The notes: generated from the letters alone by a model not told the origin. A DNA stretch of 64,000 nucleotides from Bilabrum cf. latius (GCA_965178125.1 OZ237765.1:682001-746000), one strand, 5' to 3'. Shown: positions 1-63,846, counted from the stretch's first letter. Made by a program: numbers and translations.

Positions 1-2998
1 TATTCGGCAACCGCTTGAATCCATCTGTATCTAGCCTCGGCAGCGCGACGTCCGTTCTCGTCCATCCTCTTGCCATCAAGGACTCAAACACAGGGTCTGG
101 CTCACCGTCCAACGACTGCGCGCAAGCACCAACGGCCTGATCCAGGGCCTATAAAGCGGCTTGGGCGACGTGTGGCTCCCGTCTGTGGGCCCACCGCCCT
201 GCACCGCACGACAGATCCTCCAGCTCATGCACCAGCACGGTTCCAATGACGGTGCTCATGGAGTCGCACGAGGCTTTGCGCAGGTGAATATTCAAGCAAC
301 GCACTAGAACACGCCCAAGGCTGCTAGCAATCCGCCACGCGTCCACCGTAGTGGACTCGGCTAGCAACCGGATGATACTTTCAGCAATAGCCATATCGCC
401 CTCCATGAGCACTCGGAATAGGGTCACCTCAACGGCTGGCATGTCCACTGCAAACACCGCATCCGGCCACAGGTCGTGCCACATGCCCATCTGTTTTGCG
501 AGAAACACCCGGTGCAAGCACCACCATCTCTCCGACGAGAGTATCCAGCCTCTGCTACAGGGCTGCCCCAACTACGGCAGGCAGCGCGTGTGCAGCCCCG
601 GCCACACATCATACTTCAGGATCCACTTGATCAGTACGGCAAACGAGCAAGCGAGCTTGTGTTCGGAGATGCGGTCTCCTCGTGGCTTGCTGTGTTGGCG
701 CTTGTCCAGCGCAAAAGCAGCATCAGCGCGCATTTGGCGGTAGCCCCTGGCATCGTACGAAAGGCAATCGGGATACTTCTTGGAGCTTACTTGATACAGT
801 TGCATCCGCGTGCGTCGAGCTACAGCAAGGGTATCCCCGTCGCAGCTCAAAGAGTCCTGCATCAGACCTCTGCAAACGGCATCAGCAGGATCTCGATCCA
901 CAGCGGCCGAGTCTGCTGGCATGCATGCTCCTGATGGATCGGCACCATGGCGCAAGAGAATCTAAAGAGCAGAGCCGCTATTAAATTTCAGGCAAACTTG
1001 CACTAGCGTTGCACCTAACGCCGCGTCATCAACGTCCAACCCTTGCTCTAGTAGGAGATCCATACTCTTTCCCTAGTCAGCGATGCAAGCCATCTTGGCT
1101 GCAAGCAAGAGGGTTGATGCTGCTGGGTCCCGATTGTATGGTCCTACTGGTATCTTGCAGCAGGAAAGTGGAGGAATGACCCGACGTGAACACGCGATAT
1201 GCAATGCGAGCCGGAGACACTCTTCATCGCCATTCGCTGCGGCAATCACCATCTCTGGCATGAGAGCCAGCCAATGCAGTCCCCTGTCCCGTAGCCCTAC
1301 ATTTGCAATAATACCAAGAACAATCAGGTCATCCCGAAACCCGGACCGGCTGTCTACGATTTCGCATCCTTCTTCGAGATTCTCAGGCATCCAGTGCCTG
1401 GCGGAAGGCAGGGCAACGCGCAACCTGTGGTGTAGAATGTGGCGCTGGATTGCCTCGAGTTCTCTCACTGTTAGCATCTGTATGTAACGCTGCGGATGTA
1501 AAGACGCCCTACCTCTCCAATCGTGCTCAGCGTATACAAATGGCAACGCGCCAAAGAGGCGGTTGGGCTTGGTGCCTGCCTGGGCGCACATGGAGAGCAC
1601 CAGGGAGGGCGGGCCCTTGGGGCCCCACACGAGATTGTTGCAGCGATCTGCCCGGAACTCGTCCTGCATTCCAAACCGAGTTGGCAGCAGCTCAATGGTA
1701 TCCGTATCAGATATCCGGTCGCCATGACGAATGAACGCGTGCATCAAAGGTTCAAATATCCTCCCACTCCCGGTACCAAAGCACCGCTGCAGCTGGGCAT
1801 GCCACGAAGTGTCGATCAAGGACAGGTCAGCTCCCTTCGCAAGCAGACCACGGACGGCGGACTGGACCTGCCTGTCTGGATTCGGCTGCAGCTAAGCGGC
1901 ATAGCGGTGACTATCCTCGTCCTCATCCTCGTCCGAATCTTCGTCCTCATCCTCATCCTGATCCTCCAGTCTACCAATCTCTGTCTCGTTGTCCTCATCG
2001 TCGCCACCTTTATGAGCAGGATCGCCGGCTTCCTCATCTTCGTCTATTGAATCGGTGCTAGAGCTGTCGGAATCACTAGCCGCTCCTGAAGCAGGAGCAC
2101 TTGCAGTGGCTCGTTTCGAATTGGTAGTACGGGTGTTGGCATCTAATTTCCCCTCCCCGGCCCCCGCTAGCACAGCCGCCAGCGCCTGCTCAAGGCCCGT
2201 AGGGCTCGCTCGCTGCAGGACGTCGTGCTTGTCAAGCCAGCTCAGCAGATCGGTAAGGAACGAGAACGGCTGGCGTTTAGTATCACCATCTTCACCACCA
2301 ATGCTCCCATCGTCGTTTTCTTTCCAAGAGATGCCCTGCTTGATGGCAACCGCTGATGCCGCCTCGATGCAGGGAAGCACGGCATGCAGTGGTGCCCATT
2401 GCACGTCAGCTTCCTATTCTGTGCTTTGATCGATCAGTCGCTGCATGCCCAGCTCATACCTGGTGAAGAACTTGTACATGCCTTCCTTCTGGTTGTCGAT
2501 CACGCTCTGAATGCACTACCAGCGCCATTCTACAGGGAACCCCAGCGGATCCTAGCCACCGGCCGTCACGCAGTGCAAGAGAATGCGAGCGTTGTTTGGA
2601 TTGGTATCTACCAGCGAATCGAACATGATACATACATCCTATAATGTATTCTCTGTTTGATCGAGCCAGGGATCCAGTCCATGTCGGAGCATGAGGGCGA
2701 GGCCTTCCCACTTCAACCTAGTGCACCATTCGAACAAGTGGTCCTCCTTCGGGACCGGTAAGGAGGGGTCGAAGCCGGTCGAAAGATTTTCCTTCACCCA
2801 ATTGATGCTGTGCTCGAATATGTTGTCTTTGAAATTTGTTGCCGCTTGGTGCGTGAGGTAAACCTGATCTTGTTCGTCAGCTTGATCACTGTGCCCGGCA
2901 GCCAGTTCTGTTCGCCCACTTCGGTGCAATTTCCAGCCGTGTTGCCCACTTAGAACGATAGGAATATCAGGCTCGCTTGAAGCAACTGAGTTTCCCAT
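1..2998 (-). CDS. Ankyrin-repeat-like protein, >999 aa, 3' end runs off the window; possible N-myristoylation (MGNSVAS)
   Basis: Track ORFs 2639-2998, 1892-2404, 1073-1819, 572-955 and 149-571 share one frame and are joined only by 9 TAGs, with no TAA/TGA to the window edge. Ankyrin-like motifs: LLAKGADLS, LLLEQGLDVD, SAL(TAG)ILLRHGADP. Acidic tract at about 1910-2050. Confidence 0.7.
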
Positions 2999-3398
2999 AT
3001 TGGCGATGTTTACAGCTAGGACAAGTCAGAATGCGCAACTTTGTGGATCACACGATCGGTGCTACAGTGCAATGTAGCAATTGCATTGCACTGTGGCACT
3101 CCTGAATGTCCTCCGCGGAAACAAGATTCGTTCGGTCGGTCGGTCTGTCGGTCAACGGGTACATTTTCGTTGCTTGCCACGTTCAAAAACACAAAACACG
3201 CGTATCTGTTCATATATTCTGCCTGGCATAGTTTTAAATACCATGTCAGTTTCCGCTGCCATCGAAGGACACAGCAAGCATGCAACGCCACAACAATCAA
3301 GCTCAATTTCTCCAGGTGAGAGGTATTGGACCCATTATATGATTGTGTACAGTTGTATGTACCGCAAGCATGCTCCTGTCTGCGTGTGGAAGTTTTGA

Positions 3399-6300
3399 AT
3401 GCGGCGACAATCGTGCACCTTGTAGCGCTTCTTGCTTTTGGACGCAGAAATTTTGGCCATGTGCGCATCTGCACTAGATATCAGGGATATAGCAAGCTTA
3501 ATGCAAGTATCAAGGGATACCAGGCGCCATCTTGCCACGCAGCACGCCACTGTGGCAAAAGTTGCGGCAGCTAGGCTTGCCCATGTGGTCAAACAGCAGA
3601 TCAGCAGCGACGACTTGGTTCAATTTGTATCACGCACGTTTTGGCTGCACCTACGTGGCAACGATCTGCTGGCAGCACTGCAGCAAGTGTCCGATGCAGC
3701 TCGACAGGGCTCCGCGCTGTCGCGTGGTGAGCGGAGCCATGACTCTGTTCGAGATCGAGTCGTGGTCTACTAGTTCCCCCCAGCTTCTGACAGTGCCAGT
3801 TGTGGTCCGAGCCGCAAGCCAGACTTCCCGACAGAGGCGAAACGCTGTAAGATGTAGCCTGCTCAGCCTTCATGTGGTCGAGCAAGCACGTCACATCCAG
3901 GGTCCCGACTCTTGCAGTCGATCCGGCGAAACCCCATGGCTGCGGGCATGCTGCGAGCAATCGTCACATGGGGCACGGCGGGCGCACATATCCGATCACG
4001 TCAGTGCACTACCAATGCGCCAGCGCAACCATTGCACCGTCGCAGCGATAATTGCGCTGACTTGCCCTGGCTGACAGGCCTCACTTCCCTGCTGCTGGGC
4101 GTGGCGTCATTTCACAGCTTTAGGCCAGGGAGACTCGAGTCCTTGCGCAGGGCTCTGGCAGGGACCATTCACGGCGCAGAACCGACTCAAACTACGTCTG
4201 TACCGCTGCAGACCCGGCACCGCTCCCAGGTCGACACGAGCGAAGTCCTGCTGAGGTGCTTCAGACACGAAGCTGACTGCAACCTCCGTGTGTGGCAGCG
4301 TCTGCACCCGAGATACGACTTGGGACTGGCCTTGACCAACCTAGGGATCGGCTAGCACCCACAAATTGACTCAAATCTTGTACTGCTCTGTAATGTACGG
4401 GGTGTGGTGGCCGCTGCACACTGTGCTTGGAGTAGAAACATAACCTCTGGCTCACACGCGCGCGTAGCTGTGCTGCGTAGCAGTTGTATGCCAGTCACTG
4501 CAGAGCGCAATGTGCGAGACAAGCTAAGTCACTGCGTACATCATATGACGAGGATCATTTCTAATGTCGGAATGATGACGCTTCTATGTCAATGCGTCAA
4601 TGGCGAGTGCGTCCACGAGGCTCCTCAGGGCGTGCAGCGAGACGCACTATACTGGCCCTTCGACATGCCGTACCAAAGGTGTAAAGCTGTGGATTTGCTG
4701 GATAGTCAGACAGGGCGCCCAACGGGACTATCAGCTGTGAGCAGTCGCCCTAGTGGGACTTCCCCAATAGAATTACCTTCAAGCTGCAGCAAGACTGCAG
4801 CAGACAGTATTGGGAGAAATGTAGAATTACATTCGACAGTACAAGGTAAGAAGCAAGTGGCAGCGCGGCAAAGCAATCAAATTGAGGTAGAATGTGCGCA
4901 GGAGCCAGCATCATCCCCCATTTGTGATATCGACAGCGGGACTCGCACTGATTTTAGGTCTAACGAGAAGGACCGCACGCCAATCCAGCCGATAGCCATA
5001 CTACGTTGGATGGAAGCCAGCAGCATGATGCTGCAGCGTGACAATGAGATCAAGCACCTGAAGCGGCTTTTGGAGGAGTGCCACAAGGCTGGGCATGAAG
5101 CACACATTGCCCTGTCGATTGCAAAGCAACACTCATGCTGTATCCCTAACGGCACGCAGTGCAGGTTGCTGTGCACCGCATACCCCAGCAAAATTTGGGC
5201 AAGGTACTGGAGCGATGTACTGGTGACGGCTGTGCCAATGGTCATGTGGATCTGCGTGGCAATTGCATTCCTGTTGTATGCTGTGCCGGTCGCATGTGCA
5301 CAGGCAGTTCTTGTTGAGTCCACCGAAGTCTTGAACCGATCAATGGTGACATTCAATAGTTCGTGGCTACCCGTGGATGATGAAGTAGCCGACTCAATTT
5401 ATATGTGCGGAGCGGGATATCTTCTCGGCAGCAGCCCCGTTTCGCCCTCTGTATCCCATGGCCTGGGCCAATCGACAGGTCTGGTTGACATGACCAGCCT
5501 CGCGGCATTCCGGATGACACCGTGGGCTTTTACACTTGCTGCTGGGCCGGCGGCTCTCTCGGCATGCGTACTGTATTACTGTATTTTCAGCGTTGCACAG
5601 CAGTATTGCGATGATCTGTCGGTGTTCTGGGTTCCCTCCAGCCTGCACCTGATATGGGGGTCGTGGACTGAGATTGACGTGAGAACATAGCGTGACAGGA
5701 TCGATCAATTACGCAATCGGTACGATGCAGGGCAAACTTTCCCGCGTGGCTTCGAGCCTGCATGGGCGAGGCTCCACGATTTGAGGCGCCAAAGGGGTGT
5801 CAGTTCAATTTTGCCCGCACTGCATGTGATCGGAAGGCCCCGTTCTGTTGCTTTCGATGCAATGCACTGCGTCAGCATATCGGCTGCCTCCGTTGTCGCG
5901 TTTGCAACGGCTTCAAGTCTCGGTGTCGTTGGGCTTGCGGTACGGTGGGATGCCTTGATGCAGCGCTCGCTTATAAGCTCGATCGGAACGCATTCGGTCG
6001 TAGATCTATATGGACCTGATCCAGCTTCAATTATTTGCAGGGCCTTCACCTGGATTGCCGTGGCTAGTCTGCTACTTGACGCAGCGCTCCGTATCAGGCT
6101 TGTCCATCGGTACAGGTCATGGATTGGGACCAGTCGAGGCGAGCCGCCGTGCCTGTGTCATGCCTCGGTGGTGCATTGGGTATTTGGCACATTGCGGCAC
6201 TCTGTAATCGGCGATTATGTGATTTTGCTTTGCATTTGGCTCCTCTGGGTTGGATTAGCAAATCCAGGTTGTGATTTGTCATCACTGAACGGACGTGCAA

Positions 6301-7967
6301 GTACTGCCGCCGCCGTCCTCGCCGGCACGGGGGTGCTTCTATTCATAGGACGCGAGCTCATTCTTATGTCTATTTAGCGCCATGTGTGGTAGCTATGCCA
6401 CTGTTGTAGTGATAATCTTGCGGTCGCTAGAGATTGCATGGGTTTACCATCGGTGACAGGTGCATACTTGCTGGGTGTACTGCCACTCCTGACGGTATTC
6501 GGGTTGTCTATGTGGAGCGCAATAGGTTCAACTAGACACTATTTCTTCCATCCCTCCGTAGCCGCACCCATGTTCGGTGTTGCGTTCGGGGCACCAATCT
6601 TGCTGCACACAGTCCCTTTTATGTGCTACTGGCTGTACCCGGACTGGTTTCCGTAGAACAATACCATCTGGCAGCTGTGCTGCTGCCCCGGAGCGTCAAG
6701 GTCATATGGCGACACAAGAGGATTCAATGCCATGTATGCTAAAGCCCTGCACTCAGTTTTAGAGAGTCGGCACTACTTGACGGAGTTTATTGGGTGGATC
6801 CTTAGATAGCCTGCATGGCACAGCTTTGCCAGGAGAGACCTGGCCCAAATGATCGAGATCCGCTTAGGCGGGTTGGATCCAGGTATTGAGGCCGATGCAG
6901 CATTCATTGGACCCTATAAGGTATTAGCTCGATTTGTTGCGTACCCAATGGACTGTACAGGTGCCAAACTACACGAGTACACGTGGGGACCTGTGTGGAG
7001 CGGCAGGGCGAAACCTATTGGACCCGTGGACCGCACCTGGAGCGATCAGCAGCTAGAGGAGAAAGGTATCATTCCCACTCCAAGAAAATCAGTGGAGCAT
7101 TGGTTGAGCATGTGCGTTCAGTCGCGCATGTAGTTGGGGGTGGCTGCGATTCGAGAGGGTGTAAATGCTCTTCGTCATTTGCAAGGGAGTTCGCATTGCG
7201 GTGAGTCCTTCTATTTCGGACTAGCCCGCTAGCTCATTCGCCTTCACTGCAACCTTGAGGCCTTGCACGATGCCATTATGAGCTGTAGGCAACGTGTGGA
7301 TCGGCGCCTAGCTCGTGGCAGGTCTGGGCCGCGAAACAATCTGTGGGGCATGCCAGACGCGTATTTGGAGTCGCGCCAAGATACGTATTTGGCTGGTACT
7401 GATGCAGAGGAGGTGCGAGCTCTCAGTGGTGCTGCTGTTGGCGCTGCTCTGGCATTGGGTAAAGACCCAATCGAGCTTGTAGTGTTATATGCAAAGGAAA
7501 TGTGGCCTGACCTGCACCTGCACCGGCACCTGAACGCTCAGGCTCACAATACTACTGTGGAAACGTCGTTATTTACGCACCCTGGTACCGCTGGAGGCAA
7601 TTCAAATGTATCGGGCGCCTCGAGCGCTAACCATGGCCAGCGCAGCATCAATTGCGTGAAAAGTGTCAACGTGCGCGCTGCACTGGCTTGCGGGGAGGAA
7701 TCGTGGGATACGTGTGTGTAGTCCTGCATGGGTGGCAATCGAACCGTGGGATGGGCTTAGCCGGGGTGCCGCATGTTGCATGCCATGGGGGGTGGGAGCG
7801 CAGCACATGGCAGCGGGCGAACTGAAGGTTAGGTTCAGCTGCAAGCTACCGGGTCTCGAGAGAACTTGGACACTGGCAGCAGCGGTGCGTGGAGTGCTCG
7901 AGCTGGGGCTGACTGGGTTATGTGGCCAGGAAGCGAACCACTTCCGCGGGAGTTCCTTGGAAATTGA
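3399..7967 (+). CDS. Large (about 1522 aa) protein with N-terminal F-box-like motif and several central hydrophobic/TM segments; function unknown
   Basis: ATG at 3399 to TGA at 7965. Seven track ORFs (3432, 3912, 4404, 5781, 6438, 6849, 7263) are in one frame and broken only by 14 TAGs. LLDAEILAMCASALDIRDIASLMQVSR resembles an F-box. Hydrophobic segments lie at about 5220-5300, 5520-5600 and 5860-6650. Confidence 0.6.
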
Positions 7968-9314: not shown

Positions 9315-11853
9315 ATGGGATGCTGTCCGAGCACTGAAGCTGGAGCAGGGGTGGTTGAAAAACGCAACTATGCCGGTATGTCCCCCGCAGAGGTGAGGTG
9401 AACGTGGCAACAACGACGAGGTTATCCGTTTGCTTCTGTTCCATCCCAATCTTGTAAAATCTCGATAGGATCTCCACGTCTATATTGCAGATCCTTTTGG
9501 CTGAAGAATGGGACGCAATCGATCAAGACAAGTAAGCGCTACCGCCTCTGAATTGCTCGCCGCTTTTTCTCGTGGCACCATTCTTCGGATACGGCATCTC
9601 TCTCATTAGGATCGCAGGAGCGGAGACTTGGACGAGACGGAGCTCATGCGTCTGATGGAAAGGATCGGCGTGTCTATCTCACCATAGGCGCTGAAGAAAC
9701 ACTTGAAGAAGTTTGACAAGGACGGCAGCGGCACTCTGTCCCGGGACGAGCTCGTGCCGTTCTTCGAAGAGGTCTCGGATCGCCCCACGGATGCGTTTGA
9801 CGCGCTGATCGCACAGTACGGCTAGGATGGTAAGCTCTCAGCAGCTCAGTTCGCCAAGTTCTAGGCTGAGCACCAGGGCGAGCACGCGGCCGCCGGCGAG
9901 ACCCCGGACCAGATGCTCGCCCGCTTTCGTGCCTCACTGCTCCGATCGGCGGATCGGGCGGCCGAGTCCCCCGACGGCGTGGACCCGGCCATCCAAGGGT
10001 ACAGGCAGACGGTCCACGACGCCGCCGAAAAGGCAGCCGAGGAGGAGGGTGGTGGCGGCGCGGCGGGAGCCTCGACCGCCGGAGGGGGCGCGGCGGGGGC
10101 GGCAGGGGATGGGGCGTCCAAGCTGAACCCACTGCAAGCAACGAAAGCCAAGAGCGGTGGGAGCAGCGAGTCGATGGTGGGAAAGATTCCCGTGTCCATA
10201 CGCCGCAACACCGCGGCAGTGGATGGGGCGGAGGGAAAGAGGGCGCAGATGGCTCGGTCGGCCGTGTCGGGGTCCAGCGACACGGTGTGTGTGCGAGAGC
10301 TCATGGCCTTGCTAACCAACCCCGAGGTGAATGGTATCATCGCCAACGATAGGGCGCAGAGAGTGTGGCAGGACATGACCCGCCCGCTCTCCCACTACCA
10401 CGTCTCCTCCACCCACAATTCGTACCTCGCCGGCAACCAGCTCTGGGGCGAGTCGAGCGCGGATGCGCTGCGCCGGGCGCTCTCGCTGGGCGCCCGGGTG
10501 GTGGAACTGGACACCTACGACGGGGATCCGGAGCCGATTATCACCCACGGGGGCACGCTCACCTCCACGCTGGGCTTCCGCGAGGCTGTCAGAGCCATCG
10601 GGGAGTACGCATTCAGGAAGCAGAACGTGCGGCCCTCGCAGTACCCGGTGATCATCACCATCGAAAACCACTGCAGCCAGGAGCAGCAGGCGGTGCAGGC
10701 CAGGATCCTCAAAGAGGAACTAGGTGACAAGCTGCACGTCCCGCCGGCCACCAGGCCACGGCTGTACCCCAGCCCAGAAGAACTCAAGGGCAAGGTCGTG
10801 ATACGGGACAAGCCGGGGGTGCCTCTGCCCGTGCAGGGCGAGGAGGGGGGTGTGGAGGCACCCACGGAGGCGCAGGTGAAGGCCGCTCAGGAGGCAGACG
10901 TGGAGGAAGAGGGGGAGGGCAAGGAGGGTAAAGGAGGCGCTGCTGCGAGCGGCGGCGCGGGGGGGGGCTCAAAGCACAGCAAGGCGATGCACCCCGATCT
11001 GCTGGCCCTCATCACGGTGCCCAACGTCAAGTTCAAGGGCTTGGACAAGCTGGAGGTCCTGGGGGCCGGGTCCACGTCCAGCTCCTTCGACGAAGACAAG
11101 ATCGTGAAAGTGGCGGGAAAGAGCCCCAAGTCGGCCGGGTTCATCGGGTACACGCAGACCCACCTAGCCAGGACGTATCCCAGGGGCCTCCGAGTGGACT
11201 CCTCAAACTACAACCCCACGTTCATGTGGCAGGTAGGCTGCCAGATCGTGGCTCTCAACTACCAGAGCGACGGGCTGCCGGTGCACATCAACCAGGGCAA
11301 GTTCAACGACAACGGAGGCTCGGGGTACGTGCTCAAGGCACCGCACCTGCTGCCGGCAGATGGCAAGTCCGCGGCAGCCGCGGTGCCCGCTGACTTTGAC
11401 GTATCTGGCAACAAGGCCCCCGCCAAGATGGACCTCAAGATCGAGCTAATCTCGGGGCACTACCTGCCCCAGGCAGCCGAGGACAAGGGCACCAGCGATG
11501 TGGTGGATCCATACGTCGTCATTCGCGTCAACGGGTGCGAGGCAGACGAGTCGAGCTGGACGAGCTCAACGGTCAAGGACAACGGGATCAACCCTCGGTG
11601 GAAAGGGGAGGTGGCCGGGGACAAGTACACGGCCAAGTTCTCCGTCAAACGGCCGGAGACCGCCGTCATCACGTTCGAGGTGTGGGACGCCGATACGAAT
11701 CCCGTGAACAGCGACGATCTGTGCGCGGTGTTCAGCTGCCCCCTCGACGCTGTCAGGCCTGGGCTACGGGTGGTGCCCCTGTGGGATGTGGGCAGCGTGC
11801 CCCTTCCTCTGTCGAACCTATTCGTGAGCGTGACGCGGGAGGACAAGGAGTGA
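9315..11853 (+). CDS. PLC: Phosphoinositide-specific phospholipase C (EF-hands, X and Y catalytic boxes, C2 domain) with N-terminal MGCC acylation motif
   Basis: Exons 9315-9392, 9491-9531 and 9618-11853 (GT..GCAG introns of 98 and 86 nt). EF-hands DQDKSGDLDETEL and DKDGSGTLSRDEL; X box QDMTRPLSHYHVSSTHNSYL..VELD..HGGTLT..IENHC; Y box RTYPRGLRVDSSNYNP..GCQIVALNYQ; C2 DPYV..NGINPRW. In-frame TAG at 9685, 9823 and 9862. Ends in TGA. Confidence 0.93.
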
Positions 11854-39518: not shown

Positions 39519-39550
<32 letters not shown>

Positions 39551-54754: not shown

Positions 54755-57700
54755 ATGCTGGAGAGAATGCTGTCTCGCCGGCGGCGGATGCGTCCAGTGT
54801 ACCTCCGACGGGCTCTATCGTAAGAGTTTAATCCTAGTTAGTATCATCAACACTGTTTAATTACATCGAATTCAAGTCATTATCACGGCAATGTATTGTT
54901 ATTGCAGGTACATATGCGATAGCAAGCGGTAGAAGCTAGGGTTACCACCGTAGGGCACTTCGTGGGAGGGACCTTGCACGTCTCCCCGGCCCGCTTCCCT
55001 GTGGCCAGCCGGCGCGTGGGGCCCGCCAAAGACGCACTCTGCGGTGGCTATTCGTCTCTCTGGAGAGGCTTTAAACTTTGCAGTCGATCGCAACGATGCA
55101 ATTGTGGTTGCAGTGCTGGCTCCACTTAGCAGTGCGGAGCAGCTGGGGCTGCAAGCAGCCGGCCGCACAAGCAGTGCAAGGTCGCAGTCAAAAGCCCAGC
55201 AGAAGCATCGCGACAGAAGCGGCCATGGAATGCGTACGGATAGTAATCTTGGCATTCTCTTGGGCGTGCGCATACTTTCAGCTCAACCAGTATTGCGCGG
55301 CGGCAGATTGAACAAGGCTCTGCTCGCAGGGAGCACTGCCTTAAATCCAACCAGTGCGAATGCCGGTGGGGCCGCGCGGTTTGCACCACCAAGCACATCA
55401 AGTGCGCACACAGCTACATAGATTCCCACGCATTAGAACCAGTCGACTCAATTTTGGAGCGCCGGAGATGAAGCGCCGAGAGGGTACGATGCTCTGGATC
55501 GACTTGCACAGCACGCGGGTGTTATGCAAGGCTCCCTCGTTGGAGAATCTGTGAGTGCATCTGGTGGCAGCATGCCTTCATCAAGCACATCAGGAGTATC
55601 TACCAAAGCTTAGCGGGCAGTATCACCCGCTAGCTTCGATGACAGGGAAACCTCTAGAGACTTGTTCCCAGGGCTGCCGCGAGCACCGCCCTCCTTGAGG
55701 GCATCCCCATCCCTCGGCGATGCTGAAGTCGGACGAATCGGAGTTGCAACAGGGTTGCATGCTCCTGGTGCCATAGGGGCCGGGGCAGCTACACACTCGC
55801 CTGAGGACATCGTGGTTGTCCTGCCGAAGCGGTTCACAAGGCATGGTCGGCTGGTTTTGCTTCCGTTTCTAGCCAGCAACGCCCTCTTGGGTCCCGATCA
55901 ATCGGAGCAGGGGCTGCATACAGCTGAAGCAGCAAGTACAAAGCGAGGGTCGCTCGATTCAACTTCAAAGCGACTGCCTCTAGACAGCGAGTTCTGCAGG
56001 GCACTGGCGACCCGCCTCGAGCCCTTGGATTCGGGGCATTTGCGTAGGTCTGCGGCATCGAGGGGCAGTCATGCAGCGCGATAGATGCATGGCATCGCAT
56101 CCAGGTCTCTCGTGTCCCCTAGGCAGGTCCAGCTTGCTGTGCAGGAGGCCGCCGAATCTGCCAACCGAGCAGGGATGCACCGGAGCAACGGCCACGGGGC
56201 GTCCTCTGGCGCAGGGTCCCGGTCGAGCGGGTCGGCCCAGTGCGCCTCGCTGTCACCCATCGCGGTGAGGGTGAAGCCTCTCGGGGGCACTCTGAAGACA
56301 GGCCCAACGGAGGTGCAGAGCGCCGTGTGCACGGCCCGCGTGTCCACTGGCTCCGAGGGGGCCACAGAAGGGAGTAGTGACGCGGGGAGTGCCTTGGGCC
56401 CGGGGCAGACGCAGCACCGCTTGTTTGCCGACAAGCTGCTGGACGTGTCGGCGGACTGGAACGGTGCATCAAGTGCGTGGTCGGACCAAACAAGTTCGAG
56501 GCTCAAGGTGTGCCTGCAGCACACCTCTATGTAGTGGCCCGTGGCTGCCCCCCAGCCGGACGAGGTGACCGGCAGCATACCACTGGCAGGCAGCTCGCAC
56601 GGCAGTGATGATGAATTGCGGCGCAGCTCTGTTGATGGAACAGCTGCTCGCAGCACAGGCACCGCGGGCAAAGTATCGGGTGCTCCTGTGTCCTCGCTGC
56701 TTCGGATGCCCCGCGTCCAGGACGACCAGGACCCGACGAGGCCACTGCTGGACCCACCGTCCATCGCCCTCGCGGGCGAGTTCTGGCAGCCACCTATGCG
56801 AGACCCCGCATCCATGCAGCTGCTTGGATGGTCCCCCGCCATGCCCAGGCTGCACCTGAGGCACAGAGCCGACAGGCTGGTGCACCCCCTGAGCGGGGCG
56901 GCGGCTCGCGCAAGCGCCACGATGCAGAAACTGGGCGGGCCCATGCCCAGGTCTGCAAGGCTCGTGCGCTGGAGGCAGACCGCCACAGCCCGCATGCGCA
57001 TGCTGCACACGAGCGCGGTCCGGCCCGCCGCTCCCGGCCGCCGCTCCAAGCTCAATCTAGCCATCGAGGCGGCGACCAGGGACACGGCACTGGCCATGGG
57101 CATCCCGCTGGAGGCACTGGAGGAGACCCAGCCCCGCGGGGCGGCTGGGAGGACAGCGGCTGGGTCGTCGGCTGGCGAGTCGGGGAGCGGAAGTGTGACG
57201 AGTGCGATGGACGGGACCTCCCCGCTACCGAGCCCCACCCCCAGCGCATCTCCCGTGCCTGAGGACTCCGTCGACGGCGATGGCGATGGCGATGGCGGGG
57301 ACGGGCCTGGCGGCAGCGATGAAGACGATGGGGACGATGGAGGTGAAGATGAAGAAAGCGCCGAAGTTACGGAGTCGCAGGACGGCGATGATGGAGACGA
57401 TGAAGACGACGATGAGGATGGAGGTGCTGGCGGGACAGGCCCAGGCACAGGCAGTGGAAGTGGGAGTGGCATTGCTCTGTCCGGGCGCGGGCGCAGGGGC
57501 AGTGGACCGCGTGCAGCCAAGCGAGCAAGGACGGCCGCGCGACCGACTTCAAGCCCCCGTGGGCGCGGACGTGGACGAGGACGTGGCCGTGGGAGGGGCA
57601 GGGGGCGTGGCAGGGGAAGGGGGCGCGGGCGCGGCATTGGAGCCGGTGAGGCCGGCAGGGGTGGGCTGTCATCAGTGTCGGGACGAGATGTGTCCTCTGT

Positions 57701-60700
57701 ACCCATGCGGATCAGCCGGCTGCCACGAGGATTCGAGCTCCTAGACTTGGGAGCCGTCAGCGACGACGAGACCGAGTGCGGGCCCGTTAGGATGCGAGAC
57801 TGGCTGCGGCAGCTCGGCAAGAGGGAGAAGCCGAGGGCGGGGGAGCAGGAGTCCGCGGTGCACCTGCGGCTGCCTGGGCGCTCCCGTCTGCTGCCCGGGG
57901 GCCGTGGGCACCAGGAGAAATCGCGGGGTGTGATCGACGGCCGGAAGGTCGGGGCGTGGGGGCAGGACCAGGAGGAGCCGAGCCTTGAGGGAGCGGGCGA
58001 CTCGCCAGACGCTGAGGTGGAGCTGCTGGGCGATGGGGTGCACGGCACTGCTGCACGGGCCACTGAGATGCCGGTGCTTCTGGGGGCGGCGATGCGGAGG
58101 CCCTAGCCGCTGGTGCATCGGCTGGCGGATCCTGGGCTCGTGCTTGAGCAGGAGATGGTGGGAGCTGCCGAGGTGGACCTGCTGGAGGAAGGCGCGGCAG
58201 CGGGGCCCGATATCGATGCAGAGCGCGTAGCGGCGGCGAGTGGTAGGAGCATCGGCAGTGGCAGTAGGAACGGTAGATCGAATCGGATGCGAGGTGGCTC
58301 CAACTCTGACTCCGACTCCGACTCTGATTCTGATCAAGAAGGCAAAATAGGAGGCGATCCGGGACTCGGACTTGGGCTCAGCAGGTCCCGCGGAAGAGCG
58401 TTTGCTTCAAATGGGTACTCCGCAGGGCACTAGAACGGATCCTAGATCGGCCGCAACTCCAGGGTGTAGCCTCGATCGACGGGTCTGGAGCCATCCATCC
58501 ACTAGAGCAAGCGCGGCACCGGCCCTGCCATCATCGGGAAGCTGCGGGTCATGGACCCGGCACTGGACGGCCAGAATCTCCCGCGCCCCGCTGCCGCCAG
58601 GTAGCAGCGGGCCCCCGAGCGGCTGGTCTTCCACTGGCTCGCGCCTCGAGTAGAAGTGCAGAGGGCGCTGCTTGAGGGGTGGGACGAGGTAAGGTGCAGG
58701 GCACTGCACCGCGCCATCCGTAGAGAGAAGCTAGAAGCGATGCCCCCAGACGAGCGACCCAGTTCGGAGGACGAGGCCGATTCGGGCGAAAATTTGAACG
58801 AGGACGAGGACGAGGACGGCGCCATCGTCAGAGGTGCGCACGCTGCCAGTAGGGGCAATGGCAAGGGTAAGGGCAAGGGCGCCGACCCTGGTAGCCACAG
58901 TAGCAGCAGCAGCAAGGGCAGTGGCAAAGAAACTGGGAAATCGCCCGCTCGGGCGCAGTCAGAAGCGGTCGAAAGGCGGGGGCGAGGCCGGCGAGCCGCC
59001 CGCAAGGTCGTTGTAAGCATGACAGACAACTCCAGCAGCGATGATGAGGACGGTGGTAGTGGCAGCGATTCTAGGGGCAGCGTGCAGAGCAAGGTCGCGG
59101 GCGGTTCGCGGGATTCAGGCGATTCCTCTGAGGATGGCAGCGGGTCCGACTCGATGGGCGCTGCTGCAGCTAGCGGGGGCTGGAAGGGACCCAGCAGCAG
59201 CAGCGTTCGAGCACTGCTGGCACTCGGTGAGGTAGAGGAGGCCGACGGGCAGCATGGGATGCGGGCTGATGTGGGTAGTGGGGATTCCACAGACGGAATG
59301 ATTGCTGCCCCGATCAGGAACGCATCGAATGGAAGCACCGTCGATGCACAGCCAGGCGGACTAATCTCCGGACAGGAGGCGTTTCCTTGGCTGTCGCGGC
59401 TGCTGGCTGACCCGTACTGCTGGAGCAGCCGCACGCAGGTCGTTGTCGGGATGGAGTGCCCCGCGTGCGACCAGCCGTGCGGAGACGTCCATGGGCTGCT
59501 CGAGCACATGCACGCGGACCACGTGGAGCGGATACAGGTGGCGCTATGGGGGGTATCCACCCCCTAGCAGCTGGTCAGCGGGGGGGGCAGGGCCCTTGAC
59601 GCCACTGTAGGAGTAGCCTTTGCTAGGGGCGGGGCGGTTGGCATGCCGGTTGCCTTGCGTGGGGTGGCAGGCAGGGAGCAGAGCCCCCTCGTGTATCACT
59701 TTGGCGCCTCCCTGGCTCACTTTGGCATGCCGGTGGGGTGCGATGGGGGCGGGGGAATTTCCCCTGGAGGACCCCCGCGTGGGGTAACTCCCCTGGATCT
59801 GCGCACCGAGGCTGCCGCTGCATCTCTTCGCTACCTTGCCCGTTTGCTGGACCAGCTGACCCACAAGCCGCACTCTGAGTGTGAGACGAGACAGGCTCTC
59901 CTGACAGAGACCATCGGCTGCGTGCGGGACTGCCTTCTCGTGACCCATGCAGGAGAGGGGGAGGGGAGTGACACTGGAGACAAGGGGAGTGCCTCTTCTG
60001 CAAGTAGCAAGACCAGCGGCCTCCAACAGGGGTCGTCGCACAAACGCAAGGCAGATGAGCCTAGTGCAGCGGGTGTGGGTGCAGCAAGCGATGGCCTGTA
60101 GGACGGGATAGGTGACGACCTGGATGACGGTGAAGGCGGATTGGCCGCCATGGCTGCCCTGATTGCCATGGAGCAAAGCATGGAGCGCGACGATGGGAGC
60201 ACAGACGGGGATGCTGGTGTTGGCGGGGCGGGGCAGGACCCGGCATGGCTCGGTGTCGACGAAAGCACAGACTCAGGTGCAGGTTCAGGCACTGAAGCTC
60301 CCGCAGCTCGCCGCGCTGCTTCCGACCCACGGGACTCGACTGCCTGGCACCGTGCCGTCGCTGACGTGGCCAGGTCAGTGCTCGCGAGTCACCATGCCCG
60401 GCTTGACCCCACCAGTCGCGAGCACCCGCACATACCCCAGAGGTGGGAAGCCATCAGCCGCGTGCTGCCCACCGAGCTCAGGCCGATGCCGCCCCCTGGC
60501 CCTCTGCCCCGGCGCACCATTTCGGGACAGGGCAGCCAGGGCCGCTCCCCTGCCGCCATGTACACACAGAGCGGGGTCTTCCTCGGGTCCAGGAAGGTAC
60601 GAGGGGTGCTGGACGTGCTGAACCCCAGCGTGGGGGCGACAGGTGCAGGGGCGGGGGCAGGATCGGATGGTGCTGCCTCAGGATCAGGGGCAGGGGCAGG

Positions 60701-61673
60701 GGCAGGGTCAGGCTCCGCCAAGTCTGCGGTGAAGGTACCCGACACGATCGAGGCGCGGATCACGGCGGCGCGCGCTTCGCCGGCCCTCACGGACCCTAGC
60801 CGCAGTGCAATGCACCTGCAGTCCAGCGGTAGTGCGTCTGCGTCCAACTGCTGCCTCATATGCACTCGTCACAGGGCACCCGGGTCGATCCGGAGGGCTG
60901 CGGTGCGCGCGGCGCAGCGGCTGGTCCGCGCCGCGGCCGGCCTCACTCGTCACACAGTGCTGCCTCAGGGTAGCTTGGTTCCTGCCGGCGGACTTCCTGC
61001 GCAGGACCCGTTCGCCGCGGCTGGAGGCACCAGTGTGACGATTGACCTGTGGTCGCGCGCGGTGCCGCTGGGCTGCATGCACGGGCCTGCTCGGCTCATG
61101 CCCGGCGAGCTGGCCGCCCTGCTGTACCTGTGGGAGAGGCAGGAGGAGGGTGGTGGCTGGATGCCCGTGCAGTACGTACACTCTCGTTCCCTGCAGCCGG
61201 TGAGGGAGGGCGAGCCGGACGTTGACTCGGAGGACGAGGGGGAGGATTCGAGGGTGCTGGGGGGGGTGGGTGGATCGGATGGGTACCTGCTCAAGAGGAG
61301 CGATGCGCTGTTGCGGGGGATGGGGGACTTGGGTGACAAGGACAGGCTGTTCATGCGGCTGTGGAACGTGTGGACGCATGCTGTGACGCCCGAGTTCCAG
61401 TACGAGATGCCTCACGTGTCGATCGGATTCGCGAGGGAGCATGCGGCCGTGATCGTGGGGGAGGGGCTTCGGTCCTCCATGGCCAAGCACATGATGCTGC
61501 TGTGGGAGCGGAGGCTCATCAGCAGAGACGTGGTGATGCGTTGCATGCGGATCGTGGATGGAGTCGGGGAGCTGGCGGGGTCCGTTGCGAGGGCAACTCG
61601 AGGAGAGATCAGACCCGATGAGCTGCCCGTGCCGAGGACTTTTGGGCATGGTTCGGCGCTTGGGCGAGACTGA
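54755..61673 (+). CDS. SUZ12: SUZ12/EMF2-like Polycomb repressive complex 2 subunit, greatly expanded (about 2280 aa)
   Basis: N-terminal RMLSRRRRMRPVYLRRALSYI (spliced across intron 54820-54907) matches the SUZ12/EMF2 motif. C2H2 finger CPACDQPCGDVHGLLEHMHADH at about 59457-59525. C-terminal VEFS box QYVHSRSLQP..DVDSEDE..KDRLFMRLWN..HMMLLWERRLI. 15 TAGs; ends in TGA. The true start may be upstream (ATG 54617 or 54663). Confidence 0.8.
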
Positions 61674-61869
61674 TTGTTCGCACCTGCATAGTTGACATGG
61701 TGTACGAGCTACGCCACCTACCGGTTCAAGAATAGGAGTATTGCACTCGGCGGACAAGAATTTGAAGTGCTCCGAATCATAGCAAGAATTGAAGCCAGAC
61801 CCCAGTACCGTACAAATCATCCACGGCCACTTCCGTCTGCATGACTATGGTGACACAAAAGACAATATA

Positions 61870-63846
61870 ATGCTGGCTACGAAGGCCAGAATGGAGGAAA
61901 TGGTAGGCACAGTGGAAGCTATGCGAAAAGGGCTTCGGCCACCTGCAAAGATGCTGGAAGACGGCGACGACACCAAGCAGTATTACTTGAAGCAGAATGT
62001 TGATATTCTTCGAACGATCCGGCGTGAAGAGGGGCGCCTTTGCAGCATGCAGACATTTCTGGAAGGCGAGCGATCTGCTGCCAAAGATGACTCGAACGCG
62101 ACAAAAGCCGCGGCCGGGACGCATGCTGATACGCTGTCAAAGGTAAGCACCCGTACAGCTACTGTTGCTTCGGATGATAAAAACGATGGCAACGAAGAAA
62201 CAGCGAGGGCGACACTGATGGCCCTTCTGCGGGCATCAGCCGCTGCAAGTGCAGGGGAAGAGCCGGATCCCATGGTGGACTGGCTTGTGTTTATATCATT
62301 TGTCGGTAATGTATTTATATTGATCGCCAAGATCATCGTACTGGCGTTTAGCCTGACGTTGAGCGTGATTGGCAGCTCGCTAGACAGCTTGCTGGATATC
62401 GCAGGTGGCGTGATCATCTATTTTTCCACCCGTGCTGCAAAGAAGACCTCGCTCCACGCGTTTCCAGCTGGGCGGGCTCGCGCCGAGCCGGTCGCGATCG
62501 TGGTGCTCAGCGCGGTGATGGGGATGGCGGGCCTGCTGCTCGCACGAGAGGCAATCGCCTCTCTGGCAGCCGGTGCCCCGGACCGGGGCGAGGACGAGGG
62601 CCCGGACATCCCTTCCCTGGCCGTGCTCGGCATCAATGTCGTGTACAAAGTCACCATGGCCTGGCTCTGCGGGGCCTACAAGGACGTCTCCCCCTCCATG
62701 GGGGCCTTGGCGCAGGACCACTTCAACGACTGTCTCACCAACGGCGCGGCTATCCTAGCCGTCGGACTGGCCAGTGCCTACCCCGATCTGTGGGCGGCAG
62801 ATCCCGCCTTTGCCATCCTGCTGGGCTGCTACATCATCTGGTCCTGGGTGCAGGAGGGCGCGGAGCAGGCCCGTCTGCTCATAGGCAAGGTGGCCAACCC
62901 TGACGTGCTGCAGGAGCTCACCCGAGTGGCCTATTTCCATGACCCGAGGGTCCGCGCCATCGACTCCGTGGTCGCATTCCACGCAGGCACGCGTGTGACC
63001 GTGGAGGTCGACCTGCTGCTGGACCGAGGCATCCCGCTGCACGAGGCGCACGACATCGGGGAGGCCCTTCAGCTGAGGCTAGAGTCATTCGCAGAGGTAG
63101 AGAGGGCGTACGTGCACCTGGACTATGAGGTGGACCACAAACACAGCATGGCGCAGCTCGAGGCGGGGGCGGGGGGCGAGAGACACAGGGAGAAGAAGGG
63201 GGATGAGAAGGAGGACGACTAGGAGGAGGAGGTCGGCGGCAGCGTGGCTCCAAGGAGCGGCGGTTCAGACGGAGGATCTTCGGGTGGTGTGACGAGTGAC
63301 GGCGGGGGCGCTGCGGCTGCTTCGGCCCCACGATCGCGTGATGGTGGTACAGGAGAGTGCGGTAAAGGCCAGTAGGAGTAGAAAGAGGAGGAGGAGGGGG
63401 AGGGGGAGGGGGAGGGGGAGGAGGCAGTGGACGTGGAGGCAGGGGAGGTGAGAGCGAGAGTTGGGGCGGGGGTGGGGGTGGCAGTTGAGGGGAGGAGGGA
63501 GGGGGAGGGCGAGGCTGCGGGTGTGGAAGGCCAGGGGCAGGGGCTGGGGCTGGAATAGGAGGAATCGGAGGGTGGGGACGGGGCGTCCTCCGGTGGCAGC
63601 TCCCCCCGGGCCGTGCGGCGGCAGGGGTCGGGCGACCTGCGCAAGAGGCTGGGTGGGAGGGTGAGGTTGGGCGTGGGCGGGGGCTCGCCGCGGTCCATGG
63701 ACGGGACTAGCGGGACTGCGATGGGCCAGCTGGCCGAGCACGTGGTGAAGTAGCCGCAGTCGGGCAAGGAGCTCATGGGAGCGGGGGAGGTGGCTGCCAT
63801 GGAGGCGGAGCTGGAGAAGGCCTCGAGGACGACTCGGAGGGGGTGA
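61870..63846 (+). CDS. Cation diffusion facilitator, Mn-CDF/MTP8-11 type, with acidic Gly-rich C-terminal tail
   Basis: Motifs KQYYLKQN, LDSLLD (TM2), FPAGRARAEPV, AQDHFND (TM5), HDIGEALQLRLE..VERAYVHLDYE. The tail continues through 5 TAGs to TGA at 63844. Confidence 0.9.

What the first reader, a model, noticed from the sequence alone, without database searches (positions are those of the whole stretch)
1..63846. Non-standard nuclear genetic code: UAG = glutamine, with UAA and UGA still stops
Seen: 19 of 20 genes contain in-frame TAGs (about 125 by hand count) and no internal TAA/TGA outside predicted introns. All 19 visible ends are TGA (17) or TAA (2), none TAG. TAGs interrupt essential parts of conserved proteins: MoaA 32041, OTU 36896 (between the catalytic Cys and His boxes), acylase 46114 and the PLC EF-hand region. 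Established: most eukaryotic reassignments move UAA and UAG together (ciliate code). Codes that split them are rare; examples I recall are the fornicate Iotanema spirale and some phyllopharyngean ciliates (UAG=Gln) and a rhizarian (UAG=Leu). Inference: this GC-rich genome with an apparent mitochondrial Moco enzyme and PRC2 does not look like those lineages. The sequence style suggests a heterotrophic stramenopile-like protist, so this may be an independent, undescribed origin. I cannot confirm taxonomy or novelty.
Basis: partly seen in the sequence, partly recalled or inferred. Interest (0 to 1): 0.97.

Follow-up and report, generated by a model that had tools for sequence, protein, structure and literature searches.

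The report
Protist nuclear genome reads TAG as glutamine
This stretch of a GC-rich protist chromosome only makes sense if the stop codon TAG is read as an amino acid, most likely glutamine, while TAA and TGA still end genes, which is a rare kind of genetic-code change seen here in a lineage where it does not seem to have been reported.

Summary
Reading TAG as sense lengthens the longest frame from 701 to 2270 codons; 100 shuffles gave at most 677. Seventeen long frames hold 133 in-frame TAG in 18,066 codons. All 18 visible ends are TGA (16) or TAA (2). Seven TAGs lie inside Pfam domain matches.

The TAGs are not errors, editing sites or micro-introns. Contigs from three further runs show GT..AG splicing that the DNA-like run lacks. 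They cover 18 of 29 TAGs with no difference.

A metagenome relative, L001 (74% identity in the acylase), shows the same pattern.

Glutamine is the best reading. In ortholog pairs TAG faces Gln in 6 of 18 well-aligned cases against a 3.2% background, and never Leu. One TAG sits at the Gln of the TIS11 zinc-finger CQFAHG motif.

TAA is not sense: 0 in frame where 26-51 would be expected.

The closest named homolog is from Cafeteria, so the placement is tentative. Eight literature searches found no stramenopile case. No tRNA or eRF1 could be examined.

Verdict: a real UAG=Gln code (NCBI table 15 type), probably a new lineage of a known kind.

The parts
2..3025 (-). Long frame with no Pfam match; runs off the window start; 9 in-frame TAG
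3399..7967 (+). 1522-codon frame with no Pfam match, 14 TAG, ends in TGA
9505..11853 (+). PI-PLC gene (EF-hand, X, Y, C2). 4 TAG at 9607, 9685, 9823, 9862; ends in TGA. The TAG at 9685 lies inside the EF-hand_7 match. The TAG at 9862 faces a Leu-rich column in homologs.
11963..13441 (-). TIS11/tristetraprolin-type tandem CCCH zinc-finger gene; 3 TAG; ends in TAA
13337..13339 (-). TAG codon at the Gln position of the CQFAHG motif in the first zinc finger
   Evidence: It aligns to Q in PDB 9y10, 1rgo and 1m9o. Q fills this position in 57 of 75 tandem-finger units found in 68 of 150 representatives.
14092..15315 (+). ADP-ribosylglycohydrolase gene; 1 TAG; ends in TGA
15528..30911 (+). Four tandem paralogs (15528-19193, 19194-22655, 24458-27607, 27801-30911) with no Pfam match and 22-29% mutual identity. 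They hold 11, 10, 7 and 5 TAG and end in TGA, TGA, TAA and TGA.
31201..33171 (+). MoaA/MOCS1-type GTP 3',8-cyclase with an N-terminal extension. 6 TAG, one of them at 32041 inside the Radical_SAM match. It ends ...ILIGG followed by TGA.
   Evidence: RNA-like contigs 31181-32293 and 32396-33246 show 0 differences.
33309..35120 (-). 603-codon frame with no Pfam match; 1 TAG; ends in TGA
35351..38365 (-). MBT + OTU protease gene. 11 TAG, one at 36896-36898 inside the OTU match; ends in TGA.
   Evidence: All 11 TAG lie in listed RNA-like contig pieces.
38558..41404 (+). 948-codon frame with no Pfam match and 5 TAG. The TAGs at 39290 and 39314 sit in a Gln run (CAG CAG CAG CAA TAG).
42637..42738 (-). 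Spliceosomal intron (CT..AC on the + strand) of a minus-strand gene whose exons lie within 41410-43024
   Evidence: Joint 42636>42739 is present in X5 and X7 and absent from X1
43893..43973 (+). GT..AG intron
   Evidence: Joint 43892>43974 is present in X5 and X7 and absent from X1
44091..44179 (+). GT..AG intron
   Evidence: Joint 44090>44180 is present in X5 and X6 and absent from X1
45187..48708 (-). Penicillin-amidase-family gene with an N-terminal membrane extension; 4 TAG; ends in TGA
   Evidence: Pfam E 1e-156, one stretch running across the TAG. The N-terminal part is conserved in L001.
46114..46116 (-). TAG codon that faces Gln in the three closest homologs
   Evidence: P0004 (96% identity), P0005 = L001 (CAG) and P0006 all have Q here
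48320..54403 (+). 2027-codon gene with a Reelin subrepeat-B match; 21 TAG, 2 of them inside the match; ends in TGA. Its L001 ortholog ends in TAA.
54861..61673 (+). 2270-codon gene with a C-terminal VEFS box (SUZ12-like); 15 TAG; ends in TGA
61696..63846 (+). Cation-diffusion-facilitator transporter gene; 6 TAG; ends in TGA

Best explanation
The window is nuclear DNA of a GC-rich, intron-poor eukaryote, probably a heterotrophic stramenopile related to bicosoecids. Its cytoplasmic ribosomes read UAG as an amino acid, most likely glutamine, and UGA (the main stop) and UAA still end translation. This corresponds to NCBI translation table 15.

Shown here:
- TAG is frequent in frame, about 0.73% of codons, roughly one sixth of all presumed Gln codons.
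- It is kept in transcript-like contigs.
- It is shared with a related species.
- It faces Gln codons in orthologs.

Inferred from what is established for other UAG-only codes (PMC5304391, section 9):
- A tRNA-Gln with anticodon CUA, one base away from tRNA-Gln(CUG), decodes UAG but cannot pair with UAA.
- A glutaminyl-tRNA synthetase accepts that tRNA.
- The eRF1 N-domain has lost affinity for UAG while keeping UAA and UGA.
- The strong preference for TGA as stop (16 of 18 ends) may have made UAG stops rare enough to be captured.
For: (1) Frames. The longest frame is 2270 codons with TAG as sense, 701 with the standard code, and at most 677 in 100 shuffles.
(2) Domains. Seven TAGs in 6 genes lie inside single Pfam domain matches: EF-hand_7, zf-CCCH, Radical_SAM, OTU, Penicil_amidase, and Reelin subrepeat-B (two TAGs).
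(3) Gene ends. All 18 of 18 visible frame ends are TGA or TAA. MoaA ends with ...ILIGG directly before TGA; that a Gly-Gly end is typical of MoaA proteins is recalled, not tested. The acylase ends within a few residues of its L001 ortholog, both in TGA.
(4) Transcripts. In the 28001-48000 stretch, contigs of X5, X6 and X7 (two further studies) show three GT..AG joints that the DNA-like run X1 lacks. Their listed pieces cover 18 of 29 TAG with 0 other letters and 0 gaps.
(5) Relative. L001 has orthologs of four window genes and shows the same pattern: a 1990-codon frame with 18 TAG ending in TAA, and 28 TAG across its 4 frames.
(6) Amino acid, from orthologs. With TAG masked as X, 18 TAG-versus-other pairs at local identity of 0.4 or more face Q6 R4 K2 E2 A2 V1 H1, plus 1 TAG-TAG pair. 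The Gln background is 3.2%. Gln ranks first by both an empirical and a BLOSUM62 likelihood at all three thresholds. It leads Lys by 2.1-8.1 log units and Leu by 15-30.
(7) Amino acid, from conserved sites. TAG 13337-13339 faces the Gln of CQFAHG in three solved TIS11-family structures. Gln fills that position in 57 of 75 tandem-finger units. The acylase TAG faces Q in homologs of 96%, 74% and 36% identity.
(8) Neighbours. TAG clusters with Gln codons: 19 of 266 neighbours are CAR-Gln (7.1%, background 3.8%). One Gln run reads CAG CAG CAG CAA TAG.
(9) TAA. There are 0 TAA in 18,066 in-frame codons, where the A/G third-base ratios of Gln, Lys, Glu and Leu predict 26-51. The two TAA-ended frames extend only into stretches with 4 TAA in 69 and 4 in 119 codons.
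Against: - The sample for the amino acid is small: 10-28 ortholog pairs from one relative.
- One well-aligned TAG (PLC, 9862) faces a conserved hydrophobic column, L in 10 of 15 filled rows, which would fit Leu better.
- At the acylase TAG, distant bacterial homologs have F, L or Y.
- The MoaA and other PLC TAG columns are not Gln-rich.
- The four window paralogs give a flat likelihood.
- No tRNA gene lies in the window or in L001. No eRF1 or whole genome was available.
- The RNA nature of X5-X7 is the tool's guess. X5 is flagged 'probably DNA', and contigs drop rare variants.
- Two genes have a TAG 5-6 codons before the final TGA, so occasional termination at UAG is not excluded.
- Zero in-frame TAA and TGA is partly built in, because those codons were used to define the frames.
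Confidence: 0.85

Rival explanations
1. UAG is a sense codon but stands for another amino acid, such as Lys, Arg, Glu or Leu, as in the rhizarian exLh (Leu) or Scotinosphaera (Ser).
For: Lys is second in every likelihood ranking, only 2.1-2.2 log units behind Gln at the loosest threshold. The PLC TAG at 9862 faces a Leu-rich column. Leu is the second most common residue at the zinc-finger site, 7 of 75 units.
Against: Gln is first at all thresholds with both likelihood models. No Leu, Ile, Met or Phe partner occurs among the 28 ortholog pairs. The zinc-finger site has Q in 57 of 75 units and K in 2 of 75. A 96%-identical homolog has Q at the acylase TAG. All six Gln partners are CAG or CAA, one transition away from TAG or close to it.
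Confidence: 0.08
2. UAG is ambiguous: mostly glutamine, but also a stop at some gene ends, as in the context-dependent codes of Condylostoma, karyorelicts or Blastocrithidia.
For: Two of 17 genes (the OTU gene and the frame at 38558-41404) have a TAG 5-6 codons before the terminal TGA. With this method a TAG that ended a gene would go unseen.
Against: About 0.75 such cases are expected by chance at 0.73% TAG per codon, so 2 is not an excess (my own estimate). In the Reelin-like pair, similarity to the L001 ortholog continues after the last TAG up to the TGA/TAA. The MoaA and acylase ends that homology supports are TGA. Transcript-like contigs run 75 bases or more past the MoaA TGA, unlike the very short 3' ends I recall for ambiguous-code ciliates.
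Confidence: 0.1
3. This is the ordinary UAR=Gln code (table 6), with TAA simply rare because the genome is GC-rich.
For: TAA is the rarest stop triplet in all frames of this GC-rich DNA.
Against: CAA, AAA and GAA make up 26-28% of their A/G codon pairs and TTA 16%. That predicts 26-51 in-frame TAA beside 133 TAG; 0 are seen. Making TAA sense does not lengthen any gene frame. Two window genes and one L001 gene end in TAA, and what follows is TAA-dense.
Confidence: 0.02
4. The code is standard and the TAGs are assembly errors, pseudogene lesions, RNA-editing sites or tiny introns.
For: None found. The RNA status of the three runs is only a guess.
Against: Contigs of the DNA-like run X1 show 0 differences within the gene frames; its only listed differing position is at a repeat near 43297, and it may be the window's own source, so it is not independent support. 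The listed pieces of three further runs from two other studies show 0 differences. Spliced contigs keep 18 of 29 TAG. A relative at 38-74% protein identity has long frames only if TAG is sense. Domain matches run across the TAGs. Nineteen of 19 frames are affected.
Confidence: 0.01

Closest known systems
Iotanema spirale (Fornicata): UAG=Gln, with UAA and UGA as stops (Panek et al. 2017, PMC5304391; I read the abstract and section 9)
   Same: The code has the same three features: UAG is sense and reads as Gln, UAA is kept as a stop, and UGA is kept as a stop. The predicted mechanism is the same: a tRNA-Gln(CUA) plus an altered eRF1.
   Different: Iotanema is an anaerobic metamonad known from a transcriptome, and UAA is its primary stop. 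Here the genome is GC-rich, TGA is the main stop (16 of 18 ends), and the closest named homolog is from a stramenopile. A MoaA gene with an N-terminal extension suggests an aerobic cell, which is an inference.
Phyllopharyngean ciliates Hartmannula sinica and Trochilia petrani, and Protocruzia tuzeti: UAG=Gln only (McGowan et al. 2024, PMC11687900; I read passages only)
   Same: UAG alone is reassigned to Gln (NCBI table 15). In-frame UAG faces conserved Gln in a majority of checked positions.
   Different: Those are ciliates, with ciliate genome organisation, and the passage I read reports UAA at 93.5-100% of aligned C-termini. In this window the gene content and the best hits are not ciliate-like. 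Intron-poor long genes and TGA stops set it apart.
Rhizarian exLh (UAG=Leu) and Scotinosphaera (UAG=Ser)
   Same: UAG is decoupled from UAA in a nuclear code.
   Different: The amino acid differs. Here Leu is 15-30 log-likelihood units worse than Gln, and Ser is not among the top candidates.
UAR=Gln codes (NCBI table 6: many ciliates, hexamitin diplomonads, Ulvophyceae, Streblomastix, Amoeboaphelidium)
   Same: UAG is read as Gln.
   Different: TAA is a sense codon in those organisms. Here there are 0 in-frame TAA where 26-51 are expected, and TAA ends genes.
Cafeteria roenbergensis/burkhardae (Bicosoecida)
   Same: It supplies the closest named homolog, a PLC at 44% identity with the same domain set, and falls in the sister clade in a quick tree.
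   Different: Its 795-residue PLC was predicted whole with the standard code. This suggests, from one gene only, that Cafeteria does not share the change. The path length in the tree is about 2 changes per site, so the relationship is distant.

Membership tests
UAG=Gln nuclear code with UAA/UGA as stops (NCBI table 15) | UAG occurs in frame inside conserved genes, at a rate typical of a sense codon | tested here: met
   133 TAG in 18,066 codons of 17 genes. Seven lie inside Pfam domain matches.
UAG=Gln nuclear code with UAA/UGA as stops (NCBI table 15) | UAG positions correspond to glutamine in homologs | tested here: met
   6 of 18 ortholog partners are Gln against a 3.2% background, and Gln is first in all likelihood rankings. 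The CQFAHG site and the acylase site both face Q. The sample is small, and one site is Leu-like.
UAG=Gln nuclear code with UAA/UGA as stops (NCBI table 15) | UAA is not a sense codon and terminates genes | tested here: met
   0 in-frame TAA where 26-51 are expected. Two window genes and one L001 gene end in TAA.
UAG=Gln nuclear code with UAA/UGA as stops (NCBI table 15) | UGA is not a sense codon and terminates genes | tested here: met
   16 of 18 visible ends are TGA. TGA follows the ...ILIGG end of MoaA directly.
UAG=Gln nuclear code with UAA/UGA as stops (NCBI table 15) | UAG does not serve as a terminator | tested here: inconclusive
   No visible end needs TAG, and similarity continues past the last TAG of the Reelin-like gene. 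Two TAGs lie 5-6 codons before a TGA.
UAG=Gln nuclear code with UAA/UGA as stops (NCBI table 15) | UAG is present in mature mRNA | tested here: met
   18 of 29 TAG lie in spliced, RNA-like contigs with no difference. The RNA status is inferred from splicing and is not on record.
UAG=Gln nuclear code with UAA/UGA as stops (NCBI table 15) | A cognate tRNA-Gln(CUA) exists | not testable with these tools
   No tRNA gene lies in the window or in L001, and no whole genome is held.
UAG=Gln nuclear code with UAA/UGA as stops (NCBI table 15) | eRF1 N-domain changes weaken UAG recognition | not testable with these tools
   eRF1 is not in the window or in L001, and no genome is held.
UAR=Gln code (NCBI table 6) | Both UAA and UAG are sense codons | tested here: not met
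   Making TAA sense gains no frame length, and there are 0 in-frame TAA.
Stramenopiles / Bicosoecida (the organism's affinity) | Phylogenetic placement by marker genes | tested here: inconclusive
   This rests on one gene only. The PLC's best named hit is Cafeteria at 44% identity, and a quick tree (the careful search did not finish) puts window+P0124 sister to the Cafeteria clade with SH-aLRT 95. No other named stramenopile was in the set. MoaA hits gave no sharp signal.

The most novel reading that the evidence does not exclude
This would be an independent, so far unreported origin of the UAG-only-to-glutamine reassignment in a clade of free-living, GC-rich, TGA-terminating heterotrophic stramenopiles. 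The clade has at least two species: the window's organism and the environmental relative L001. Its nearest sequenced named neighbour, Cafeteria, keeps the standard code. It would be the first non-standard nuclear code in stramenopiles. It would also provide a genome-sequenced, apparently culturable system for studying how UAG and UAA are told apart by eRF1 and tRNA.
Probability: 0.5. Interest if true: 0.85.

Novelty: new member of a known kind. Interest (0 to 1): 0.78.

Why it matters
Nuclear codes that separate UAG from UAA are rare. The passages I read in PMC11687900 list only Iotanema, Protocruzia and two phyllopharyngean lineages for Gln, plus a rhizarian and some ciliates for Leu and Scotinosphaera for Ser.

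A further, independent case in a GC-rich genome where TGA is the usual stop would add a data point for the idea that a stop codon is captured once it has become rare. It would also offer a genome-sequenced, apparently culturable organism in which the predicted tRNA-Gln(CUA) and eRF1 changes can be read directly.

There is a practical side too. Standard-code gene calling breaks almost every gene of this organism and its relatives. In the protein database I searched, the close homologs appear as truncated pieces: P0004 has 723 residues where 949 or more are expected, and P0124 covers 62% of the PLC. Annotation, completeness scores and metagenome binning for this clade will be wrong until table 15 is used.

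Tried and rejected
- No whole genome is held for the window, so genome-wide code inference and searches for tRNA, eRF1 and 18S were impossible.
- ARAGORN found no tRNA in the window or in L001. Rfam found nothing in the window.
- Sequencing-run search: no RNA holder is listed. The three runs I treat as transcript-like are marked 'RNA?' by guess.
- Eleven of the 29 TAG in the laid stretch are not inside the pieces listed in table 8. That table shows only the longest pieces, so this says nothing about expression.
- The four window paralogs are too divergent (22-29% identity) and gave a flat likelihood for the TAG residue.
- Distant homolog columns for MoaA, PLC and the acylase were not informative for Gln.
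- MoaA homologs gave no taxonomic signal. Cluster look-ups added no organism names beyond Cafeteria.
- The careful tree search did not finish in 300 s, so only the quick tree is reported.
- Earlier findings of this scan: nothing on this genome or on look-alikes. One note on a giant virus with TAG=Gln in another genome came up. I considered a viral origin for this window and rejected it because of the spliceosomal introns, the gene content and the flat DNA depth.
- Literature: eight searches found no nuclear stop-codon reassignment reported for a stramenopile. Subscription journals and supplementary files were not searchable. The additional files of PMC5304391 and the S tables of PMC11687900 were not seen.
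- Rejected readings: TGA as sense. It lengthens random frames in GC-rich DNA (longest 1043 codons), but there is none in the gene frames. Pyrrolysine-like expansion: the TAGs are frequent and mostly at variable positions.

Full report
**What is in the window.** The window is 60% G+C and carries eukaryotic genes packed closely with few introns. Read with TAG as a residue, Pfam finds:
- a PI-PLC with EF-hand, X, Y and C2 domains;
- a TIS11-type tandem CCCH zinc-finger protein;
- an ADP-ribosylglycohydrolase;
- a MoaA/MOCS1-type radical-SAM enzyme with an N-terminal extension;
- an MBT+OTU protease;
- a penicillin-amidase-family protein (E 1e-156);
- a protein with a Reelin subrepeat;
- a 2270-residue protein with a C-terminal VEFS box (SUZ12-like);
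- a cation-diffusion-facilitator transporter.

Four tandem paralogs and several long frames have no Pfam match. No tRNA and no Rfam family is present. No whole genome is held.

**The observation.** With the standard code the longest frame on either strand is 701 codons, and frames of 300 codons or more sum to 11,022 codons. With TAG read through and TAA and TGA as stops, the longest is 2270 and the sum is 29,850. In 100 dinucleotide-preserving shuffles the longest TAG-sense frame was 318-677 codons.

All 19 non-overlapping frames of 250 codons or more contain TAG, 137 in total. Their ends are 16 TGA, 2 TAA and one that runs off the window. In the 17 frames I accept as genes there are 133 TAG in 18,066 codons (0.74%), beside 503 CAG and 177 CAA. 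Counted after each first ATG the figure is 130.

Seven TAGs in six genes lie inside single Pfam domain matches that run across them.

**Not an artefact, not editing, not micro-introns.** Seven public runs from three studies hold the stretch. I laid four of them on 28001-48000.
- The DNA-like run X1 covers the stretch at an even depth of about 100. Its listed pieces show no differing letter; its only listed differing position (43297) lies at a repeat outside the gene frames. X1 may be the window's own source.
- Contigs of X5, X6 and X7 come from two other studies and carry other organism labels. They begin and end near gene borders and have very uneven depth.
- Those three runs carry three joints with GT..AG ends that X1 lacks: 42636>42739 on the minus strand, 43892>43974 and 44090>44180. 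I therefore treat them as transcript-derived. The tool only guesses 'RNA?' and flags X5 as 'probably DNA'.
- Their listed pieces cover 18 of the 29 TAG codons of the stretch with 0 other letters and 0 gaps. This includes all 6 in MoaA, all 11 in the OTU gene and the acylase TAG.

**A relative with the same code.** The acylase has a 96%-identical homolog (P0004), a 74%-identical one (P0005) and a 36%-identical one (P0006). All three have Gln where the window has TAG 46114-46116.

P0005 lies on a 14.5-kb metagenome contig, L001. On L001 the standard code gives no frame above 356 codons apart from the 950-codon acylase frame. With TAG as sense, a 1990-codon frame with 18 TAG appears and ends in TAA. 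The acylase frame there grows to 1130 codons with 4 TAG and ends in TGA.

L001 carries orthologs of the Reelin-like gene, the acylase, the N-terminus of the VEFS-box gene and the transporter. The transporter sits at a different place in the gene order. The code change is therefore shared by at least two species, which differ by 30% in the acylase and by 62% in the Reelin-like protein.

**Which amino acid.** I aligned the four ortholog pairs with TAG masked as X. I kept only columns whose 20 neighbours reach a set identity.
- At 0.4 identity, 18 TAG-versus-other pairs face Q6, R4, K2, E2, A2, V1, H1, plus one TAG-TAG pair. Gln makes up 3.2% of aligned residues.
- At 0.5 identity, Gln is 5 of 10.
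- An empirical substitution model and a BLOSUM62 model both rank Gln first at thresholds 0.3, 0.4 and 0.5. Lys is second, 2.1 to 8.1 log units behind. Leu is 15-30 units behind.
- The Gln partners are CAG (3) and CAA (3).

Other evidence agrees:
- TAG 13337-13339 aligns with the Gln of C-Q-F-A-H-G in three solved TIS11/tristetraprolin structures.
- Among the 150 best of 8624 library representatives, 68 carry 75 tandem-finger units, and 57 of those units have Q at that position. L has 7 and K has 2.
- TAG neighbours Gln codons more often than background (7.1% against 3.8%). In one gene it extends a run CAG CAG CAG CAA TAG.

Evidence against Gln:
- The PLC TAG at 9862 faces a column that is L in 10 of 15 filled rows.
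- Distant bacterial acylases have F, L or Y at the acylase site.
- The MoaA columns are uninformative.
- The window's own paralogs are too divergent to help.

**TAA and TGA.** The third-base ratios are CAA/CAG 0.35, AAA/AAG 0.36, GAA/GAG 0.39 and TTA/TTG 0.20. They predict 26-51 in-frame TAA beside 133 TAG if TAA shared the meaning of TAG. None is seen. This zero is partly built in, because the frames were cut at TAA. Two further results are not circular. With TGA as the only stop, no gene frame merges with another. The two TAA-ended frames then extend by 69 and 119 codons, and each extension holds 4 TAA counting the terminal one, which is a density typical of non-coding sequence.

The gene ends also fit. 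TGA follows the ...ILIGG end of MoaA directly. The acylase orthologs end within a residue of each other, both in TGA. The Reelin-like orthologs stay similar past the last TAG, up to TGA in the window and TAA in L001.

I cannot exclude that UAG sometimes terminates. Two genes have a TAG 5-6 codons before the TGA, but about 0.75 such cases are expected by chance.

**Mechanism.** Shown here: UAG is a frequent sense codon, kept in transcripts, and it faces Gln. UAA and UGA end genes.

Inferred, following section 9 of PMC5304391 (read in full): a tRNA that reads UAG but not UAA must carry the anticodon CUA. For Gln this tRNA is one mutation away from tRNA-Gln(CUG). Glutaminyl-tRNA synthetase uses the anticodon as an identity element and so probably had to adapt. 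eRF1 is expected to have lost affinity for UAG, as with T32G in the GTS motif of Iotanema. None of these parts lies in the window or in L001.

The heavy use of TGA as stop (16 of 18 ends) fits a path in which UAG stops became rare before capture. That is my inference.

**Who is it.** The best named homolog of any gene is the Cafeteria PLC, at 44% identity over half the query, with the same domains. In a quick maximum-likelihood tree of 20 PLC rows, the window plus P0124 (81% identity) is sister to a four-row clade that contains Cafeteria, with SH-aLRT 95. The careful search did not finish, the branches are long, and no other named stramenopile was in the set. MoaA hits gave no sharp signal.

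A bicosoecid-related heterotrophic stramenopile is thus a reasonable but unproven placement. The Cafeteria PLC was predicted whole with the standard code. This hints, from one gene, that Cafeteria does not share the change.

**Comparison and novelty.** The code itself is known (NCBI table 15). Passages of PMC11687900 list UAG-only Gln in Iotanema, in Protocruzia and twice in phyllopharyngean ciliates. They list UAG=Leu in a rhizarian and some ciliates, and UAG=Ser in Scotinosphaera. The abstract and section 9 of PMC5304391 agree.

Eight full-text searches returned no nuclear stop-codon reassignment in a stramenopile. The only stramenopile items concern mitochondria, for example a reference to Labyrinthulea seen in the reference list of PMC12152300. 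Supplements and subscription journals could not be searched. The runs date from 2025, so those who sequenced the organism may already know.

I rate this a new member of a known kind. It is real, well supported for a single window, and of clear interest to people who study genetic-code evolution and protist genome annotation.

Noticed in passing
window 45187-63846 and L001 1-14522: L001 holds orthologs of four window genes with the acylase and the Reelin-like gene divergently arranged, as in the window. The cation-efflux transporter lies next to the acylase in L001 but after the VEFS-box gene in the window. This is a small rearrangement between the two species.
   Followed up: partly
window 15528-30911: Four tandem, same-strand paralogs of 1036-1221 codons (22-29% identity) have no Pfam match. 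Each has a hydrophobic segment near the C-terminus that follows a Pro/Ser/Ala-rich stretch. This looks like a lineage-specific surface-protein family.
   Followed up: partly
window 45187-48708 (minus strand): A penicillin-amidase-family gene whose homologs beyond the three closest are bacterial or metagenomic. It carries an N-terminal membrane extension that is conserved in L001, including a shared TAG. It may be an old gene transfer from bacteria.
   Followed up: partly
window 9862-9864: The PLC TAG faces a conserved hydrophobic column (Leu in 10 of 15 filled homolog rows). This is the one site that fits Leu better than Gln.
   Followed up: yes
window 39340-40006 and 42675-44008; also 33585 and 44539: In the DNA-like run the summed contig depth jumps from about 100 to about 118,000 at a serine-codon repeat near 39520-39550, and to 1,500-7,700 around 43100-43460. 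A joint on opposite strands links 33585 with 44539, where two frames share a similar C-terminal peptide. Repeated elements or a dispersed gene family are likely.
   Followed up: no
window 45190: Contigs of two RNA-like runs from different studies (X6, X7) end exactly at 45190, the last base before the acylase TGA on the minus strand. X5 reads on to 45032. This could be an assembly break or a 3' end; I could not tell which.
   Followed up: no
window 32302-32382: A 13.5-copy GGCCAG repeat encodes a Gly-Gln / Gly-Glu run inserted between the Radical_SAM and Mob_synth_C parts of MoaA. All contigs break there.
   Followed up: no
P0004, P0124 (database proteins): The closest database homologs are truncated pieces: 723 residues of an acylase of 949 or more, and 62% of the PLC. 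This is what standard-code gene calling would produce on relatives that also use TAG as sense.
   Followed up: partly
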